Source of the DNA: the human T2T-CHM13v2.0 reference genome, Homo sapiens | Strand: one strand, 5' to 3' | NCBI RefSeq assembly: GCF_009914755.1 | Contig: NC_060940.1 | DNA: 64,000 nucleotides | Shown here: positions 178 to 52,228 of the stretch, in pieces | Layout: the number at the start of each line of letters is the position of its first letter | How positions within the stretch are numbered: position 1 is the stretch's first letter | The notes under the pieces: model-generated | Databases searched by the model: none | The model's input: the letters and a program-made list of their open reading frames with translations, nothing else | Told to the model about the DNA's origin: nothing | Program-made: the position numbers and the translations under genes

Positions 178-1193
<1,016 letters not shown>

Positions 1194-4743: not shown

Positions 4744-7658
<2,915 letters not shown>

Positions 7659-25035: not shown

Positions 25036-25482
<447 letters not shown>

Positions 25483-41418: not shown

Positions 41419-42033
41419 ACTGCGTCTTGTTATATTGCCCAGGATGGTCTTCAACTCCTGGATTCAAACGGTCCTCCTGCCTCTGCCCCCCAAGTACTGT
41501 GATTAGAGGCATGAGGCACCACACCTGGCCCTTAACTTTTTAAATCATGTATGCACGTGAAATACTTTTTTCTCAGTGAGGTGCCTAAGTGTGAGTTTGC
41601 TAGGTGGAGTAGTTTATTTCACAAGTGGGGAAACAGGTATAGAAAGCATATTGCCCAATTTGGGAACCCTTCCCCTGCTCTCATATTTAGTCATTTTTCT
41701 ATGTTCCTCCTTTTACCTGGTGTTATCTATTAATTAAAACTTTGATTTCCTTAATTTACTAGCTCTTAGGTATCTATCAGCAAATTCAGTAGGAGACAGT
41801 GTATTGCAATTATTACAAACTAAACTCTGGAGCCTGACTATGTAGGTTAAATTCTGTTTGTCACTTACAAAAATCACGTGCTGTGCTCTTAGGCAAGAGG
41901 CTTGCCCTCTCTGTGCCTCAGTTCTCCCATCTCTAACACGGAGCTGTTGACATTGTGTGGCATGGTTGGTAGATTTAGTAGCTTAATATATGCAAAGCTC
42001 TTAGAGCAGCATTTGGCACATATCGAGGGATCA

Positions 42034-42222
<189 letters not shown>

Positions 42223-42225
42223 TCA

Positions 42226-42693
<468 letters not shown>

Positions 42694-42815
42694 TCAAAAA
42701 AAGAAAAAAAACCAAAAACGAAAAAAAAAAACAACGAATCTGGGGAACTAATCAAAACAGAGACAGGTTCTGTGGGCTTTAAAAAAATCAACTTTAGGAT
42801 GGACGCAGTGGCTCA

Positions 42816-43082
<267 letters not shown>

Positions 43083-43105
43083 TCAAAAAAAAAAAAAAAA
43101 AAAAA

Positions 43106-43645
43106 ACTTTACATATAATAAAATGCATCCATTTAAGCTGTACAGTGTGAATTTTAGTAAATGTGGCACCTGTGTAACAATCACCATGAGCAAGATGCAG
43201 AATACTGTTATCCTCTTAAACGTTTCCTTTGCCAGGTCCCACCCCCAATTCCTGGCCTCGGGAAAATACTGTCCTGCTTCTATCACTGTAGATTTGTCTT
43301 TTCTAGATTTTCATGCAAATGACATCATAGTATAATAATGCAGTACAATAATCCTGTCTCTGGCTTCTTTTGTTCAACAGGCTTTTGATTTTTTTTTTTG
43401 TCAACATGCTTTTGAGATTTTATCTATGTTAACACGCATGTTGGCAATTTGTTCCTTTCTTTGTTTATCCATTTACGGATTGATGGGCATTTGGGTTGTT
43501 TTCAGTTTGGGGCTATAATTCATAAAGGTTCTATGAATAATCATGTACAAGTCTGTGTGGATATATCACTTCCCTTGGGAATGCCATGGAGTGGAATTGC
43601 TGGGTCATGAGCTGCCTATGTATGTAGCTTCATTAAAAACCATCA
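43106..43645 (-). mobile_element. Antisense L1M 3' fragment
   Basis: gatgggcatttgggttgttttcagtttggggcta...gagtggaattgctgggtca. Confidence 0.7.
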
Positions 43646-44130
43646 AGCTGGCCAGGCACAGTGGATCATGCCTGTAATCCCAGCACTTTGAGAGGCCGAG
43701 GCAGGAGGATCGCTTGAGACCAGGAGTTGGAGACCAGCCTGGGCAGCACAGAGAGACCTCATCTCTACAAAAAATTTTTAAAAACATTAGCCAGGCATGG
43801 TGGTGTGCGCCTGTAGTCCTAGCTACTCAAGAGGCTGAGATGGAAGGATCACTTGGGCACAGGAGTTCAAGGCTATGGTGACTATGGTGAGTATGATGGC
43901 GCCACTGCTCTCCAGCCTGGGCGGCAGAGTGAGACCTTGTCTCAAAAACAAACAAACAAACAAACAAATAAAACCAAAAGAATGTCCTTCAAATGTTTCT
44001 TAGCACACTGGAGCAAAAGAAGTTAATGCCTGTTTTAATCACAACCACTTAAGGTGTGTCACTTTCCAAAGTTCGGATGAGTTAGATGGGATTTTGGGTA
44101 ATATGTGTTAGGATTAAATCCTACCAAGCA

Positions 44131-46491
44131 GGGTGGTAGTGAGGGTGTGGAAAGGGTGAGTTGAGCGGGCGAGGCTGCGAGAGGGCAACTTAACTCTCCT
44201 CCTGTCACCCCAGTGTGGGACGGCGTGAATGTGGGGTGGAAGGGATGTCAGTCTTCTCTGAGGCGGCGCTGGAGAAGGAGCTGTCGGGGTTAAGCAATGC
44301 GCAGCAGAGCATGCAGACCTGGTCCCTGTGGCTCATTCATCACAGCAAGAAGCACCCGGGCCCGTGGTCACCGCATGGTAGCTGGAGCTGCAGAGAGCAA
44401 AGCCAAACAGGAAGCTTACTTTTCTTACCTTGCCAGTGAGACCACCTGGGCAACATGGTGAAACCTTGTCTCTACTAAAATACAAAGCAAAAGGAAGGGG
44501 CCGGAGCTTACAAAAGATTTGCACTGGTTATAGTGGAAGCTTTTAAGCATGTTTCAAGTGAAACTGATGAGAGTTGTAAGAAGCACAGAAGCACATTGGA
44601 AGAGTGTTGTCTATTTGGGAAGAAAGGTCTGTTTATGCAAATGATGTATTTAGAGGCCAGGCGTGGTGGCTCACGCCTATAATCTAAGCACTTTGGGAGG
44701 CCAAAGTGGGAGGATCACTCAAGCTCAGAAATTTGAGACCAGCCGGGGCAACATAGCTAGACTCCATCTCTAAAAAAAAAAAAAATCAGCTGGGCATGGT
44801 GGTGTGCTCCAGTGGTCCCAGCTACTCGGGAGGCTGAGGTGGGAGGATCACTTCCACCCAGGAGGTTGAGGCTTTAGTGAGCCATGATCGCACCACTGTA
44901 CTCCAGCCTGGGCGACAGAGCAAGACCCTGTCTCAAAAAAACCACAAACAAGCAAACAAACAAGAAACAATGAAACAATGTATTAGAGCAACTTAAGCTC
45001 TGTGTGGTGATAAGAAGCCTAGGAAGCAAATTTATAAACAGATAAAGATGAATGAAAATAAAAACTGTTCTTCTCTGGGATCTGCAAATGAGCCACCACC
45101 ACAGACTCTAAATCTCGTGACAGCATTACAAAATCTAGAAAATGCAGCCTTGGGTGATGCAGGAGTTCACTAGAGGATCACTTTTTTGCCTGCTGTAGAC
45201 CAAGAAGTATCTCTACTAGATAAAATAGCAGATAAAGAACCTGGAGAAAGGCTTTCTAAAATGATGGATGCATGTATGTTGCCAGCAGATTACAATGGCA
45301 GAATGGCAGCAGAAATAGATGAGGGGAAGCAACTCACTCGAATGTTAGCAGATTTTCTTCATTGTCCAATGGAAGCCCTCGCAGAGAAAGCATAAATTGG
45401 AAGAATACAAGTGCAAGTGAGCCAGAGTTTCCCTGGTGTGCAAAGAATTCAGGTCCCCGATCCAGAGCCTGTCAGATTAATCTTGACTACCCAATGTCAC
45501 TGGCAGCCGCATGCACCTGCCCTTTGCAGGGACATCTACAGTGAAGATTAATGGACCAGCCTCTTTCCCGGTCCCAAGACTGCAAGAGGTGGAGACAGGT
45601 GGATAGTCCTGTAGTGGTATTTTTGCATATTTTTGAGAGAGAAACACTAGCAAAATAAATGACAATTAGTAAAAATGTTTGAAATGTTGGTTTGTTTACT
45701 ATTTTCTTTATAAGTTAACATGAATTAGTTTTGGGGTGGTGGGGTTTTGACACAGTGTCTTGTTGTGTCATCCAGGCTGGAGTACAGTGGCATGCACCTG
45801 ACCTATGACTTCGTTTAAACAAAGTGATGGGCTGGGCCTGTAGTCCCAGAACTTTGAGAGGCCGAAGTGGGCAGATCACTTGTGGCCAGGAGTTAAAGAC
45901 CAGCCTGGGAAACATGGCAAAACACCATCTCTACTAAAAATACAAAAATTTGCTGGGCATGGTGGCACACACCTGTAGTCCCAGTTACTTCAGAGGCTGA
46001 GGAAGGAGAATCTCTTGAACCCAGGAGGTGGAGGTTGCAGTGAGCCAAGATGAGCCACTGCACTCTAGCCTGGGCAACAGAGCGAGACTCTGCCAAAAAA
46101 AAAAAAAGATGATCTCTGTGTATTAATCAGCTCACAAATAGTGATTATTTTCAAAAGGTCTTTTGGTAATTTTTTTTTTATCCAGGGCCTTGTGAGAAAT
46201 CTCATGTTTCTGTTTCCTCATATATTTTCAATTGTTTTTCTTTATTTTCTTCAGTGTCTAATCACTGTACACTATGTAATTCCTAAAGGGAAGGAACCAA
46301 TCAGAGTTGGTTGAGACTCTATTTTGGTATCGTTAGGACTGGATTGTAGATGAGACTAAATGTCCCAACATAATCTTATGTTGGAACAAAGATTATCCCT
46401 CTTTTCCCCAAACAAAATATGGATTCTGTCTCCATGCCTTTGATTCCATAATTCCCTAGAGATTGGTCATGTAACATTAAACATGGAGGTC
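44131..46491 (+). pseudogene. Processed pseudogene of RPRD1A (5' UTR, disrupted CDS 44245-45551, 3' UTR), interrupted by Alus
   Basis: Intronless. Translates to MSVFSEAALEKELSGLSNAQQSMQTWSLWLIHH...QEVSLLDKIADKEPGERLSKMMDACMLPADYNGRMAAEIDEGKQLTRMLADF...DIYSED*, which matches RPRD1A rather than RPRD1B. Has frameshifts and stops. TSD taaatcctaccaag at 44115 and 46672. Confidence 0.92.
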
Positions 46492-47331
46492 ATTAGCCGG
46501 TCATGGCAGCACGCACCTGTAGTCCCAGCTACTTGGGAGTCTGAGGCAAGAGAATCACTTGACCCCAGGAAACAAAGGTTGCAGTGAGCCAAGATCATGC
46601 CACTGCACTCCTAGCCTGGGTGACAGAGGGAGACACTGTCTCAAAAAAATAAAAAATAAAAAAATAAAAAATAAATCCTACCAAGTAGGTGTGACTTGTT
46701 GTTGTTGAAACCTAGGTGGTTTTTGTTTTTGTTTGTTTGTTTGCTTTTCAGTGTTCATCTTGGCTAAACAGCCAACAAAGCAGGTAATAGATTTCAAAGG
46801 TAAAGATGTAAATATTCTACAACACAAAATTGATCTGGCTCAAGCAAAGCTATCAGCTTTGTAAAAAAAAAAAAAAACCTTTTACTATCATATTTTTATT
46901 TTTATTTTTTAGAGATGGAATTTCTGTTGCCCAGGTTGGAGTGCAGTGGCACAATCATAGCTCTCTGCAGCCTTGAAATCCTGGGTTCAAATGATCCTCC
47001 TGCCTCAGCCTCCTGAGTACTTGGGACAACAAGTATGTGCCACCACACTGGCCTCTTTTTTTTTTTTTTTTTTTTTTTTTTGCATAGATACAGGGTCTTG
47101 TCATATAACCCAGGCTGCTCTCAAACTCTTGGCTTCAGATGACCCTTCCACCTTGGCCACCAAAAGTGCTGGGATTACAGGCATGAGCCACCACACCTGG
47201 CCAAAAAATTTTTTAAATATTAGTTCTCTATTTGAAAAAAGTTTTAACCTCTTAGTACAAAATAAATAATTGAAAGGCTATATCAGCAATTGGTTTATTT
47301 TTGTCCCTTTTGCTATTGGTTAAATAAGTGA

Positions 47332-51889: not shown

Positions 51890-52228
<339 letters not shown>

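What the first reader, a model, noticed from the sequence alone, without database searches (positions are those of the whole stretch)
44115..46689. RPRD1A retrocopy interleaved with two consecutive pieces of one Alu inside a single TSD (apparent repeated template switching)
Seen: one TSD (taaatcctaccaag[c/t]agg, 44115 and 46672) brackets the whole unit. The unit does not end in its own poly(A); it ends in an Alu right arm plus A-tail that starts at 'attagccgg' (46492). Separately, a 50-nt Alu piece with no tail and no TSD (tgagaccacctgggcaacatggtgaaaccttgtctctactaaaatacaaa, 44437-44486) sits in the CDS, replacing a few codons of the parental LANDVIQNSKRKG stretch. In the Alu consensus these two pieces are directly contiguous (...TACTAAAAATACAAAA|ATTAGCCGGG...). 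Inference: L1 reverse transcriptase primed on an Alu RNA tail, copied the right arm, jumped to RPRD1A mRNA, jumped back to the same Alu near where it left, then returned to the mRNA. Single-switch chimeras such as U6-L1 are established; a back-and-forth Alu/mRNA mosaic would be rarer and would imply two RNAs held in one RNP. By contrast, the Alu at 44655 has its own TSD and is a later insertion.
Basis: partly seen in the sequence, partly recalled or inferred. Interest (0 to 1): 0.8.

Follow-up and report, generated by a model that had tools for sequence, protein, structure and literature searches.

The report
RPRD1A retrocopy interleaved with split Alu
An old processed copy of the RPRD1A mRNA on chromosome 16 is interleaved with two adjoining pieces of an AluS element inside one target-site duplication, which is either a rare record of LINE-1 reverse transcriptase hopping back and forth between two RNAs or a simpler chimera that later picked up an unrelated Alu scrap.

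Summary
An 18-nt duplication (44115-44132 / 46672-46689) brackets four same-strand segments: RPRD1A 5' part, 46-50 nt of AluS left-arm end, RPRD1A 3' part, AluS right arm plus A-rich tail. The parent gene (chr18, this assembly) has no Alu at either junction. The internal piece lies inside exon 2, not at a splice junction, and replaces 13-14 nt. On a 282-position Alu profile the pieces cover 80-130 and 133-282, so they abut within 1-3 A's of the linker. Both are S-type. The arm's non-CpG divergence (9.7%) matches the retrocopy's (9.0-10.7%). Three further Alus inside the unit have their own duplications and tails and are absent from the parent; the two pieces have neither.

The A-rich linker is a breakpoint hot spot: 16 of 47 other 3'-truncated Alu hits in about 298 kb end there. 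The internal piece also fits every listed hallmark of a non-classical, endonuclease-independent Alu insertion. Against that, it is the only isolated, tail-less Alu fragment ending at the linker in the 298 kb sample.

My odds: one event with three template switches about 0.5; single-switch chimera plus a later unrelated fragment about 0.33. Primate orthologues would decide; none were available here.

The parts
44115..44132 (+). 5' copy of the target-site duplication (TAAATCCTACCAAGCAGG)
   Evidence: (D7), 52: two copies only in the window, 0.01 expected by chance
44133..44436 (+). RPRD1A segment 1: 5'UTR from near the parental promoter, exon 1, and the first about 44 nt of exon 2. 44437-44439 (TGA) could belong to the mRNA or to the Alu (2-3 nt microhomology).
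   Evidence: matches chr18 exon 1 (81%) and exon 2 (89%)
44437..44486 (+). AluS left-arm end plus first part of the A-rich linker (profile positions 80-130). No tail, no TSD. Replaces 13-14 nt of exon 2. The A at 44486 is ambiguous with the mRNA.
   Evidence: 4 of 4 S-type diagnostic states; 2/45 non-CpG differences from the S consensus, 7/48 from J
44487..46491 (+). RPRD1A segment 2: rest of exon 2, exons 3-6, the last exon and about 715 nt of it including 3'UTR. Interrupted by three later Alu insertions. Ends at an internal point of the parental 3'UTR.
44655..44973 (+). Later insertion 1: full-length J-type Alu with an A-rich tail and its own TSD (44638-44654 / 44974-44988). Absent from the parent.
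   Evidence: (13.3% from J, 16.5% from S)
45729..45804 (-). Later insertion 2: antisense, severely 5'-truncated Alu 3' end with a T-rich (tail) side and a short duplication ATGAMTT on both sides. Absent from the parent.
   Evidence: (profile 237-281, minus strand)
45830..46107 (+). Later insertion 3: S-type Alu with an A13 tail. Absent from the parent.
   Evidence: (10.9% non-CpG from S)
46492..46643 (+). AluS right arm (profile positions 133-282), joined directly to 3'UTR sequence with no A-run in front. The A at 46492 is ambiguous with the mRNA.
   Evidence: 3 of 5 S states, 0 of 5 J states; 12/124 = 9.7% non-CpG from S, 16.4% from J; sub-threshold Metazoa_SRP match 46496-46643
46644..46671 (+). 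A-rich tail of the Alu arm (A runs broken by single T's). The only tail of the whole unit.
46672..46689 (+). 3' copy of the target-site duplication (TAAATCCTACCAAGTAGG)

Best explanation
I read this as one LINE-1-mediated target-primed reverse transcription event that used two RNAs alternately.

The proposed order of steps is as follows. Steps 1 to 5 are inferred from the product.
1. The nick at ...GGATT/AAATCC primed on the A-tail of an AluS RNA.
2. The enzyme copied the right arm and left the Alu on entering the A-rich linker.
3. It continued on an RPRD1A mRNA at an internal 3'UTR point and copied about 1.6 kb of mRNA, up to the middle of exon 2.
4. It made a 46-nt excursion onto the Alu RNA, entering 1-3 nt upstream of where it had left. 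This could be the same molecule or another AluS RNA cut at the linker.
5. It stopped near Alu position 80-83 and returned to the mRNA 13-14 nt upstream of its departure point, then ran to the mRNA 5' end.

Junction overlaps are only 1-3 nt, as expected for template jumping rather than homology-driven transfer.

What is shown: the anatomy, the single TSD, the absence of both Alu pieces from the parent, the matching subfamily class, and the matching age of arm and retrocopy.

What is only my inference: that each donor RNA stays close because it is still hybridised to the nascent cDNA, or that cellular RNase H leaves a fresh 3' end at the departure point that serves as acceptor.
For: - One TSD encloses everything.
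- The mRNA part has no poly(A) of its own. It abuts the arm at GGAGGTCA|TTAGCC, and the parent continues without Alu.
- The parent has no AATAAA or ATTAAA before that point; the next ones lie at +109, +280 and +710.
- The 7 of 16 other right-arm-only elements that follow a retroelement's A-tail keep the A-run in front of them. This one has none.
- The internal piece has no TSD and no tail, and lies inside exon 2. The three undisputed later Alus in the same 2.5 kb each have a duplication and a tail.
- The pieces cover profile positions 80-130 and 133-282, same strand.
- Both are S-type.
- Non-CpG divergence: arm 12/124 = 9.7%; retrocopy versus parent 157/1472 = 10.7%, with CDS exons 2-6 at 53/589 = 9.0%.
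- The piece's 5' end at position 80 falls in a 5'-truncation cluster: 10 of 68 other truncated hits start at 80-91. That suits a reverse-transcription stop.
- In 298,384 bases searched, only 5 short Alu hits are isolated from other Alus. This is the only one that is tail-less and ends at the linker.
- ORF2p adds non-templated bases and jumps templates in vitro, and RNase H2 is recruited during first-strand synthesis (PMC10830420, passages).
- Double switches giving tripartite chimeras within one TSD are reported in fungus and mouse (PMC2104539, sections 3 and 8).
Against: - Nothing shows that the segments arrived together, because orthologues could not be examined.
- The linker is a breakpoint hot spot. 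16 of 47 other 3'-truncated hits end at 125-137, and 3 of 5 S-type ones end at 132-134. Contiguity is therefore only moderate evidence.
- The internal piece meets all listed hallmarks of a non-classical Alu insertion: truncated at both ends, no TSD, no endonuclease site, and a target deletion (PMC5402677).
- Chimeras in which reverse transcription starts on an Alu are described as very rare and were not reproduced experimentally (PMC4476161, passages).
- In published chimeras the 5' part is a full-length RNA copy (PMC2104539). Here the mRNA stops inside its 3'UTR.
- The piece is too short to date (2/45 differences) or to subtype. Only 6 S-type copies in my sample share its G at position 94, so there is no power.
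- A J-type Alu inserted after the retrocopy formed, so J and S sources must have been active at the same time.
- The locus was picked out by a scan, so some coincidences are expected.
Confidence: 0.48

Rival explanations
1. Two events. First, a bipartite chimera formed with a single template switch from the AluS right arm to RPRD1A mRNA. Later, an unrelated small AluS fragment entered the retrocopy DNA. That second step was either a non-classical, endonuclease-independent Alu insertion at a double-strand break with loss of 13 nt, or a classical 5'-truncated Alu insertion followed by one deletion of about 200 bp that removed its right arm, tail, 3' TSD and 13 nt of flank. On this reading the fragment ends at the linker only because the linker is a hot spot.
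For: - The internal piece has all the hallmarks listed for non-classical Alu insertions: truncated at both ends, no tail, no TSD, no endonuclease site, and a target deletion. [quoted passage not shown]
- The linker is a common end point: 16 of 47 other 3'-truncated hits, and 3 of 5 S-type ones.
- The region took at least three other Alu insertions in about the same period.
- The piece's low divergence (2/45) allows a younger age.
Against: - Such fragments are rare locally. This is the only isolated, tail-less Alu piece ending at the linker in 298,384 bases.
- The other two short pieces ending at the linker (43-130 and 59-132) are followed by A-rich tails, i.e. they look like ordinary insertions.
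- Most half-Alus ending at the linker are J/monomer-type. Only 3 of 16 are S-type, and those three are whole left arms.
- The fragment must also happen to have the same strand and the same subfamily class, and to stop within 1-3 nt of where the terminal arm begins.
Confidence: 0.33
2. No template switching at all. An ordinary RPRD1A processed pseudogene was polyadenylated at a proximal site just after GGAGGTCA. A 5'-truncated AluS then inserted at the start of its poly(A) tail, or a full Alu inserted in the tail and a deletion followed. The internal fragment arrived separately. The outer TSD is simply that of the original pseudogene.
For: - The retrocopy has ATTAAA at 46476-46481, 10 nt before the junction.
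- Right arms sitting directly behind the A-tail of another retroelement are common: 7 of 16 other right-arm-only elements.
Against: - No A-run separates the 3'UTR from the arm (at most one A), unlike all 7 local examples.
- The parent reads CATAAA, not ATTAAA, at that place and has no canonical signal upstream of the junction.
- This reading needs three separate non-standard steps.
Confidence: 0.1
3. The mosaic was made at the RNA level. Fragments of a cleaved Alu RNA and a cleaved RPRD1A mRNA were ligated in alternating order before a single, uninterrupted reverse transcription.
For: - RNA ligation via RtcB is one of two accepted routes to U6/LINE-1 chimeras (PMC13174262, passages citing Moldovan 2019).
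- The junctions have almost no microhomology.
- Both RNAs are split at single points.
Against: - It needs three ligations in one particular order and orientation.
- It also needs loss of 13 nt from the mRNA.
- No precedent for multi-fragment ligation products turned up in my searches.
Confidence: 0.05

Closest known systems
Bipartite chimeric retrogenes made by L1 template switching (Buzdin/Gogvadze type; U6/L1, Alu/L1)
   Same: Parts from different RNAs are fused directly in the same orientation. The 3' part is a 5'-truncated retroelement copy carrying the only A-tail. One TSD surrounds the whole, at an endonuclease-like site (features as listed in PMC2104539; 452 Alu/L1 cases in PMC13174262).
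   Different: Here the primary template is an Alu, not L1, which is said to be very rare (PMC4476161). The 5' part is an mRNA that ends inside its 3'UTR rather than a complete RNA. There are four segments, not two.
Tripartite chimeric retroelements (double template switch; M. grisea WEIRD/Mg-SINE/MGL, mouse B2/U6/L1)
   Same: More than one switch within a single TSD-flanked insertion (PMC2104539, section 8).
   Different: Those join three different RNAs in series (A-B-C). This one alternates between two RNAs (A-B-A-B), and each return lands within 1-14 nt of the earlier departure point.
Non-classical (endonuclease-independent) Alu insertions
   Same: The internal 46-50 nt piece is truncated at both ends, has no tail, no TSD and no endonuclease motif, and comes with a small target deletion and 1-3 nt junction overlaps (criteria in PMC5402677; the L1 counterpart is in PMC1920257, abstract only).
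   Different: Such insertions are unrelated to their surroundings. This fragment continues, in Alu coordinates, strand and subfamily class, the Alu arm that ends the same TSD-bounded unit.
Ordinary L1-mediated processed pseudogene (annotated LOC100130602)
   Same: An intronless copy of seven RPRD1A exon blocks starting near the parental promoter, with a TSD and many stop codons.
   Different: It has no poly(A) of its own. The annotated span (44208-45612) leaves out the 5'UTR start, the rest of the 3'UTR and the Alu arm that complete the TSD-bounded unit.

Membership tests
L1-mediated processed pseudogene | Intronless copy of the parental mRNA | tested here: met
   Seven chr18 exon blocks lie contiguous in the retrocopy once the later Alus are removed
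L1-mediated processed pseudogene | Target-site duplication at an endonuclease-like site | tested here: met
   18-nt duplication with 1 mismatch, 0.01 expected by chance. The site GGATT/AAATCC was read.
L1-mediated processed pseudogene | The mRNA's own poly(A) tail sits next to the 3' TSD | tested here: not met
   The mRNA part ends at 46491 inside the 3'UTR and is followed by an Alu right arm. The only tail is the Alu's.
Template-switch chimeric retrogene (bipartite or multipartite) | 3' part is a 5'-truncated retroelement copy carrying the A-tail | tested here: met
   AluS profile positions 133-282 plus a 28-nt A-rich tail
Template-switch chimeric retrogene (bipartite or multipartite) | Parts are joined directly, in the same orientation, inside one pair of direct repeats | tested here: met
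   All four segments are on the + strand. Junction overlaps are 1-3 nt. There is a single TSD.
Template-switch chimeric retrogene (bipartite or multipartite) | 5' part is a full-length copy of a cellular RNA | tested here: inconclusive
   The 5' end reaches the parental promoter region. The 3' end stops about 715 nt into the last exon, where the parent has no canonical poly(A) signal. Whether a transcript ended there is unknown.
Template-switch chimeric retrogene (bipartite or multipartite) | All parts arrive at the same time in the phylogeny | not testable with these tools
   No primate genomes are held. Only divergences could be compared: arm 9.7%, retrocopy 9.0-10.7%, piece 2/45.
Non-classical (endonuclease-independent) Alu insertion, internal piece only | Alu fragment truncated at both ends, without poly(A) and without TSD | tested here: met
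   Profile positions 80-130 only. The flanks are exon 2 sequence with no duplication.
Non-classical (endonuclease-independent) Alu insertion, internal piece only | Deletion of target DNA and no L1 endonuclease motif at the site | tested here: met
   13-14 nt of exon 2 are missing. The pre-insertion sequence ...CAGAACA|GCAAGAGG does not resemble TT/AAAA.
Non-classical (endonuclease-independent) Alu insertion, internal piece only | An orthologous allele or species shows the filled site as a later change to an already present retrocopy | not testable with these tools
   No orthologous sequence is available

The most novel reading that the evidence does not exclude
A single TPRT event in which L1 ORF2p switched three times between just two RNAs, an AluS RNA and the RPRD1A mRNA. 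Each time it re-entered the earlier template within 1-14 nt of where it had left it. That would mean abandoned templates stay tethered to the nascent cDNA, or are trimmed to a new 3' end at the departure point and reused as acceptors. It would be copy-choice 'ping-pong' of the kind known for retroviral co-packaged genomes, and my literature searches found no description of it for LINE-1.
Probability: 0.45. Interest if true: 0.65.

Novelty: new variant of a known kind. Interest (0 to 1): 0.5.

Why it matters
L1 template switching is known from two-part and a few three-part chimeras that join different RNAs in series. An A-B-A-B mosaic with near-exact returns would show that two RNAs can be held in one integration complex throughout cDNA synthesis, and that abandoned templates remain usable. 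That bears on how Alu and mRNAs gain access to ORF2p in trans, on how 5' junctions are resolved, and on how composite retroelements arise.

It would also mean that some small 'orphan' repeat fragments inside retrocopies and L1s are excursions of the same event rather than later insertions. If the rival explanation is right instead, the locus is an ordinary Alu-primed chimera plus a textbook non-classical Alu insertion, and is of little wider interest.

Tried and rejected
- **Parental Alu in the 3'UTR or an Alu-derived exon.** Rejected. The chr18 parent has no Alu at either junction and the internal piece lies inside exon 2. An intronic Alu near exon 2 that resembles both pieces lies on the opposite strand to the gene (L007 815-1121).
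- **Copying of the internal piece from a neighbouring Alu in the unit.** Rejected. The Alu at 44655 is J-type, and the Alu at 45830 matches at only 81% (D2, 30).
- **7SL RNA rather than Alu as source.** Rejected, because the piece includes the Alu linker.
- **Finer subfamily test** (does G at position 94 of the piece predict right-arm states?). No power: only 6 of 94 S-type copies carry it.
- **RNA-RNA complementarity between the mRNA junction regions and Alu** (RNAduplex against shuffles). Exon 2 showed no excess, with 30 of 40 shuffles as good. For the 3'UTR, 1 of 40 was as good, but the 'duplex' is a long, loop-ridden artefact. I treat this test as uninformative (one search timed out).
- **Buzdin et al. 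2003** (PMC169886) is not held. Its list of mRNA/Alu chimeras, and Srikanta et al. 2009 on non-classical Alu insertions, were seen only as cited by others.
- **A search for the RNA-ligation paper** failed on term format. I used the account of it in PMC13174262 instead.
Full report
**What is there.** The window sequence shows TAAATCCTACCAAGCAGG at 44115-44132 and TAAATCCTACCAAGTAGG at 46672-46689. With up to two mismatches allowed, these are the only two matches in 64 kb, against 0.01 expected from shuffles (family D7). The upstream flank reads ...GGATT/AAATCC, which is close to the L1 endonuclease motif TT/AAAA as quoted in PMC13174262. Between the repeats, all on the + strand, lie:
- RPRD1A 5'UTR, exon 1 and the start of exon 2 (44133-44436);
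- a 46-50 nt Alu piece (44437-44486);
- the rest of the RPRD1A mRNA up to an internal 3'UTR point (44487-46491);
- an Alu right arm (46492-46643) with a 28-nt A-rich tail (46644-46671).

**The parent.** The window's genome can be searched. The only other matches to the non-repeat parts are seven blocks on chr18, minus strand: exon 1 at 36258786-36259050, through to the last exon at 36184082-36184796. There is also one 77% match on chr20, which I take from memory to be the paralogue RPRD1B. So this is the only RPRD1A retrocopy in the assembly.

Alignment to the parent shows that the internal Alu piece lies inside exon 2, not at a splice junction. The parent reads CTAGCCAATGA[TGTCATACAGAAC]AGCAAGAGG, and the retrocopy reads CTTGCCAGTGA[GACC...ATACAA]AGCAAAAGG. 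Thus 13-14 nt are replaced.

At the 3' end the parent continues ...GGGATGTCA|CTTTGAGGGGCAG... with no Alu, while the retrocopy reads ...GGAGGTCA|TTAGCCGG. The parent has no AATAAA or ATTAAA in the roughly 715 nt of its last exon before that point; the next ones are at +109, +280 and +710. The retrocopy does have ATTAAA 10 nt before the junction, where the parent reads CATAAA. I cannot tell which state is ancestral.

The retrocopy's 5' end maps next to the parental promoter region. Its reading frame is full of stops.

**Later insertions.** Three further Alus inside the unit are absent from the parent, and each has an ordinary signature:
- a full J-type Alu at 44655-44973, with duplication 44638-44654 / 44974-44988;
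- an antisense, severely truncated Alu 3' end at 45729-45804, flanked by ATGAMTT;
- an S-type Alu at 45830-46107 with an A13 tail.

The two pieces in question have no such signatures.

**Alu coordinates and class.** I built a 282-position Alu profile from 60 near-full copies found in the window and loci. I searched 298,384 bases with it: 264 kb of contiguous chr16 including the window, plus 11 loci. That gave 273 hits.
- The internal piece covers profile positions 80-130 (E 1.7e-9) and the arm covers 133-282 (E 4e-39).
- The second linker A-run is at 129-133. The piece keeps three A's and the arm one, and one A at each junction could instead be mRNA. So 1-3 A's are missing.
- At positions that separate the S-like and J-like groups of full-length copies, the piece has 4 of 4 S states. 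The arm has 3 of 5 S states and 0 of 5 J states; the other two are private changes.
- Non-CpG divergence from the S majority consensus is 2/45 for the piece and 12/124 (9.7%) for the arm.
- The retrocopy differs from the parent at 157/1472 (10.7%) non-CpG sites, and at 53/589 (9.0%) in CDS exons 2-6.

The arm and the retrocopy therefore look equally old. The piece is too short to date. The names J and S for my two groups rest on recalled diagnostic motifs.

**Is the contiguity more than chance?** Less so than a uniform model suggests.
- Of 68 other 5'-truncated hits, 19 start at 116-137 (4 at 129-137). Of 47 other 3'-truncated hits, 16 end at 125-137 (10 at 128-133).
- Most of these half-Alus are J/monomer-like. 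Only 2 (a third is borderline) of 16 right-arm-only elements and 3 of 16 left-only elements are S-type.
- Among S-type hits alone, 2 of 16 5'-truncated ones start at 110-140 and 3 of 5 3'-truncated ones end at 132-134.

Given that the arm starts at the linker, an independent fragment would end there with a probability of roughly 0.1-0.2. Contiguity is therefore worth a likelihood ratio of about 5-12.

Context matters, however.
- Seven of the 16 other right-arm-only elements sit behind another Alu's A-tail and keep that A-run. Ours has none in front of it.
- The two other short pieces that end at the linker (43-130 and 59-132) are followed by A-rich tails.
- Only 5 short hits (100 nt or less, E 1e-4 or better) are isolated from other Alus. 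Ours is the only one that is tail-less and ends at the linker.
- The piece's 5' end at position 80 lies in a cluster of 5'-truncation points: 10 of 68 start at 80-91.

**Mechanism.** The simplest single-event reading runs as follows.
1. TPRT primes on an AluS tail and copies the right arm.
2. The enzyme leaves at the linker and continues on RPRD1A mRNA at an internal 3'UTR point, up to mid exon 2.
3. It makes a 46-nt excursion on Alu RNA, entering 1-3 nt from the earlier exit.
4. It returns to the mRNA 13-14 nt upstream and completes to the 5' end.

Junction overlaps are 1-3 nt.

ORF2p has non-templated addition and template-jumping activity in vitro, and RNase H2 is proposed to act during first-strand synthesis (PMC10830420, passages). 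My inference, which is not shown, is that each abandoned RNA remains hybridised to the cDNA, or is trimmed to a new 3' end at the exit point. Either would explain the near-exact returns. The two Alu pieces could also come from two AluS RNAs cut at the linker.

**Rivals.**
- **(a) Single-switch chimera plus a later, unrelated fragment.** The piece meets every hallmark listed for non-classical Alu insertions: truncated at both ends, no tail, no TSD, no endonuclease site, and a target deletion. [quoted passage not shown] Alternatively, a classical 5'-truncated Alu followed by one deletion of about 200 bp gives the same product.
- **(b) No switching at all.** A pseudogene polyadenylated after GGAGGTCA later received a truncated Alu at the start of its tail. 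This is the alternative voiced for triple chimeras in PMC4476161. The complete lack of A's before the arm argues against it.
- **(c) Ligation of RNA fragments before reverse transcription** (the route described for U6/L1 in PMC13174262).

From the local frequency of comparable orphan fragments, I estimate (a) at roughly 1e-4 to 1e-3 per retrocopy of this size. The rate of excursions under the one-event model is unknown. My odds are about 0.48 for one event, 0.33 for (a), 0.10 for (b) and 0.05 for (c).

**Comparison with what is known.** Bipartite L1 chimeras, including 452 Alu/L1 cases, and a few tripartite ones are in print (PMC2104539, sections 3 and 8; PMC13174262, section 12). Chimeras primed on an Alu are called very rare (PMC4476161). 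My searches found no description of an A-B-A-B mosaic of two RNAs in an L1-mediated insertion. That is the limit of the claim, because Buzdin 2003 and Gogvadze 2005 could not be read.

**What remains open.** The decisive data are primate orthologues and a genome-wide count of abutting fragment pairs. 

Noticed in passing
window 5338-5499 and 25261-25422; also 52048-52190: Extra Alu right arms sit directly behind the A-tail of a full Alu. In all, 7 of 16 right-arm-only elements in about 298 kb have this layout. They could come from insertion into tails with truncation at the linker, or from template switching at the linker onto another Alu's poly(A).
   Followed up: partly
window 46476-46481: There is an ATTAAA hexamer 10 nt before the mRNA/Alu-arm junction in the retrocopy, where the parent reads CATAAA. 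If it is ancestral, the mRNA may have ended at a proximal cleavage site.
   Followed up: partly
Alu profile positions 80-91, 298 kb sample: 5'-truncation points cluster here: 10 of 68 truncated Alu hits start at 80-91, against about 3 expected if starts were uniform. This is the same place as the 5' end of the internal piece. Some of these may be right-arm ends mis-aligned to the left arm.
   Followed up: partly
window 41592-44387 (-) and 44318-44818: According to the hub's annotation, the terminal exon of HEATR3-AS1 overlaps the retrocopy's 5' part on the opposite strand, and a RefSeq 'enhancer' element covers the internal Alu piece and the start of the later J-type Alu.
   Followed up: no
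L011 1503-1632 (chr1, minus strand): An S-type Alu left arm ends ...CTACTAAAATACAAAGA in the linker and abuts a 5'-truncated Alu that begins at about position 36. This is another S-type break at the linker without an A-tail.
   Followed up: no
window 44787-44838, 46494-46545 and others: Sub-threshold Rfam matches to mir-1268, mir-3135 and Metazoa_SRP fall on the Alu arms. These families are Alu/7SL-like, and the matches are not evidence of miRNA genes.
   Followed up: no
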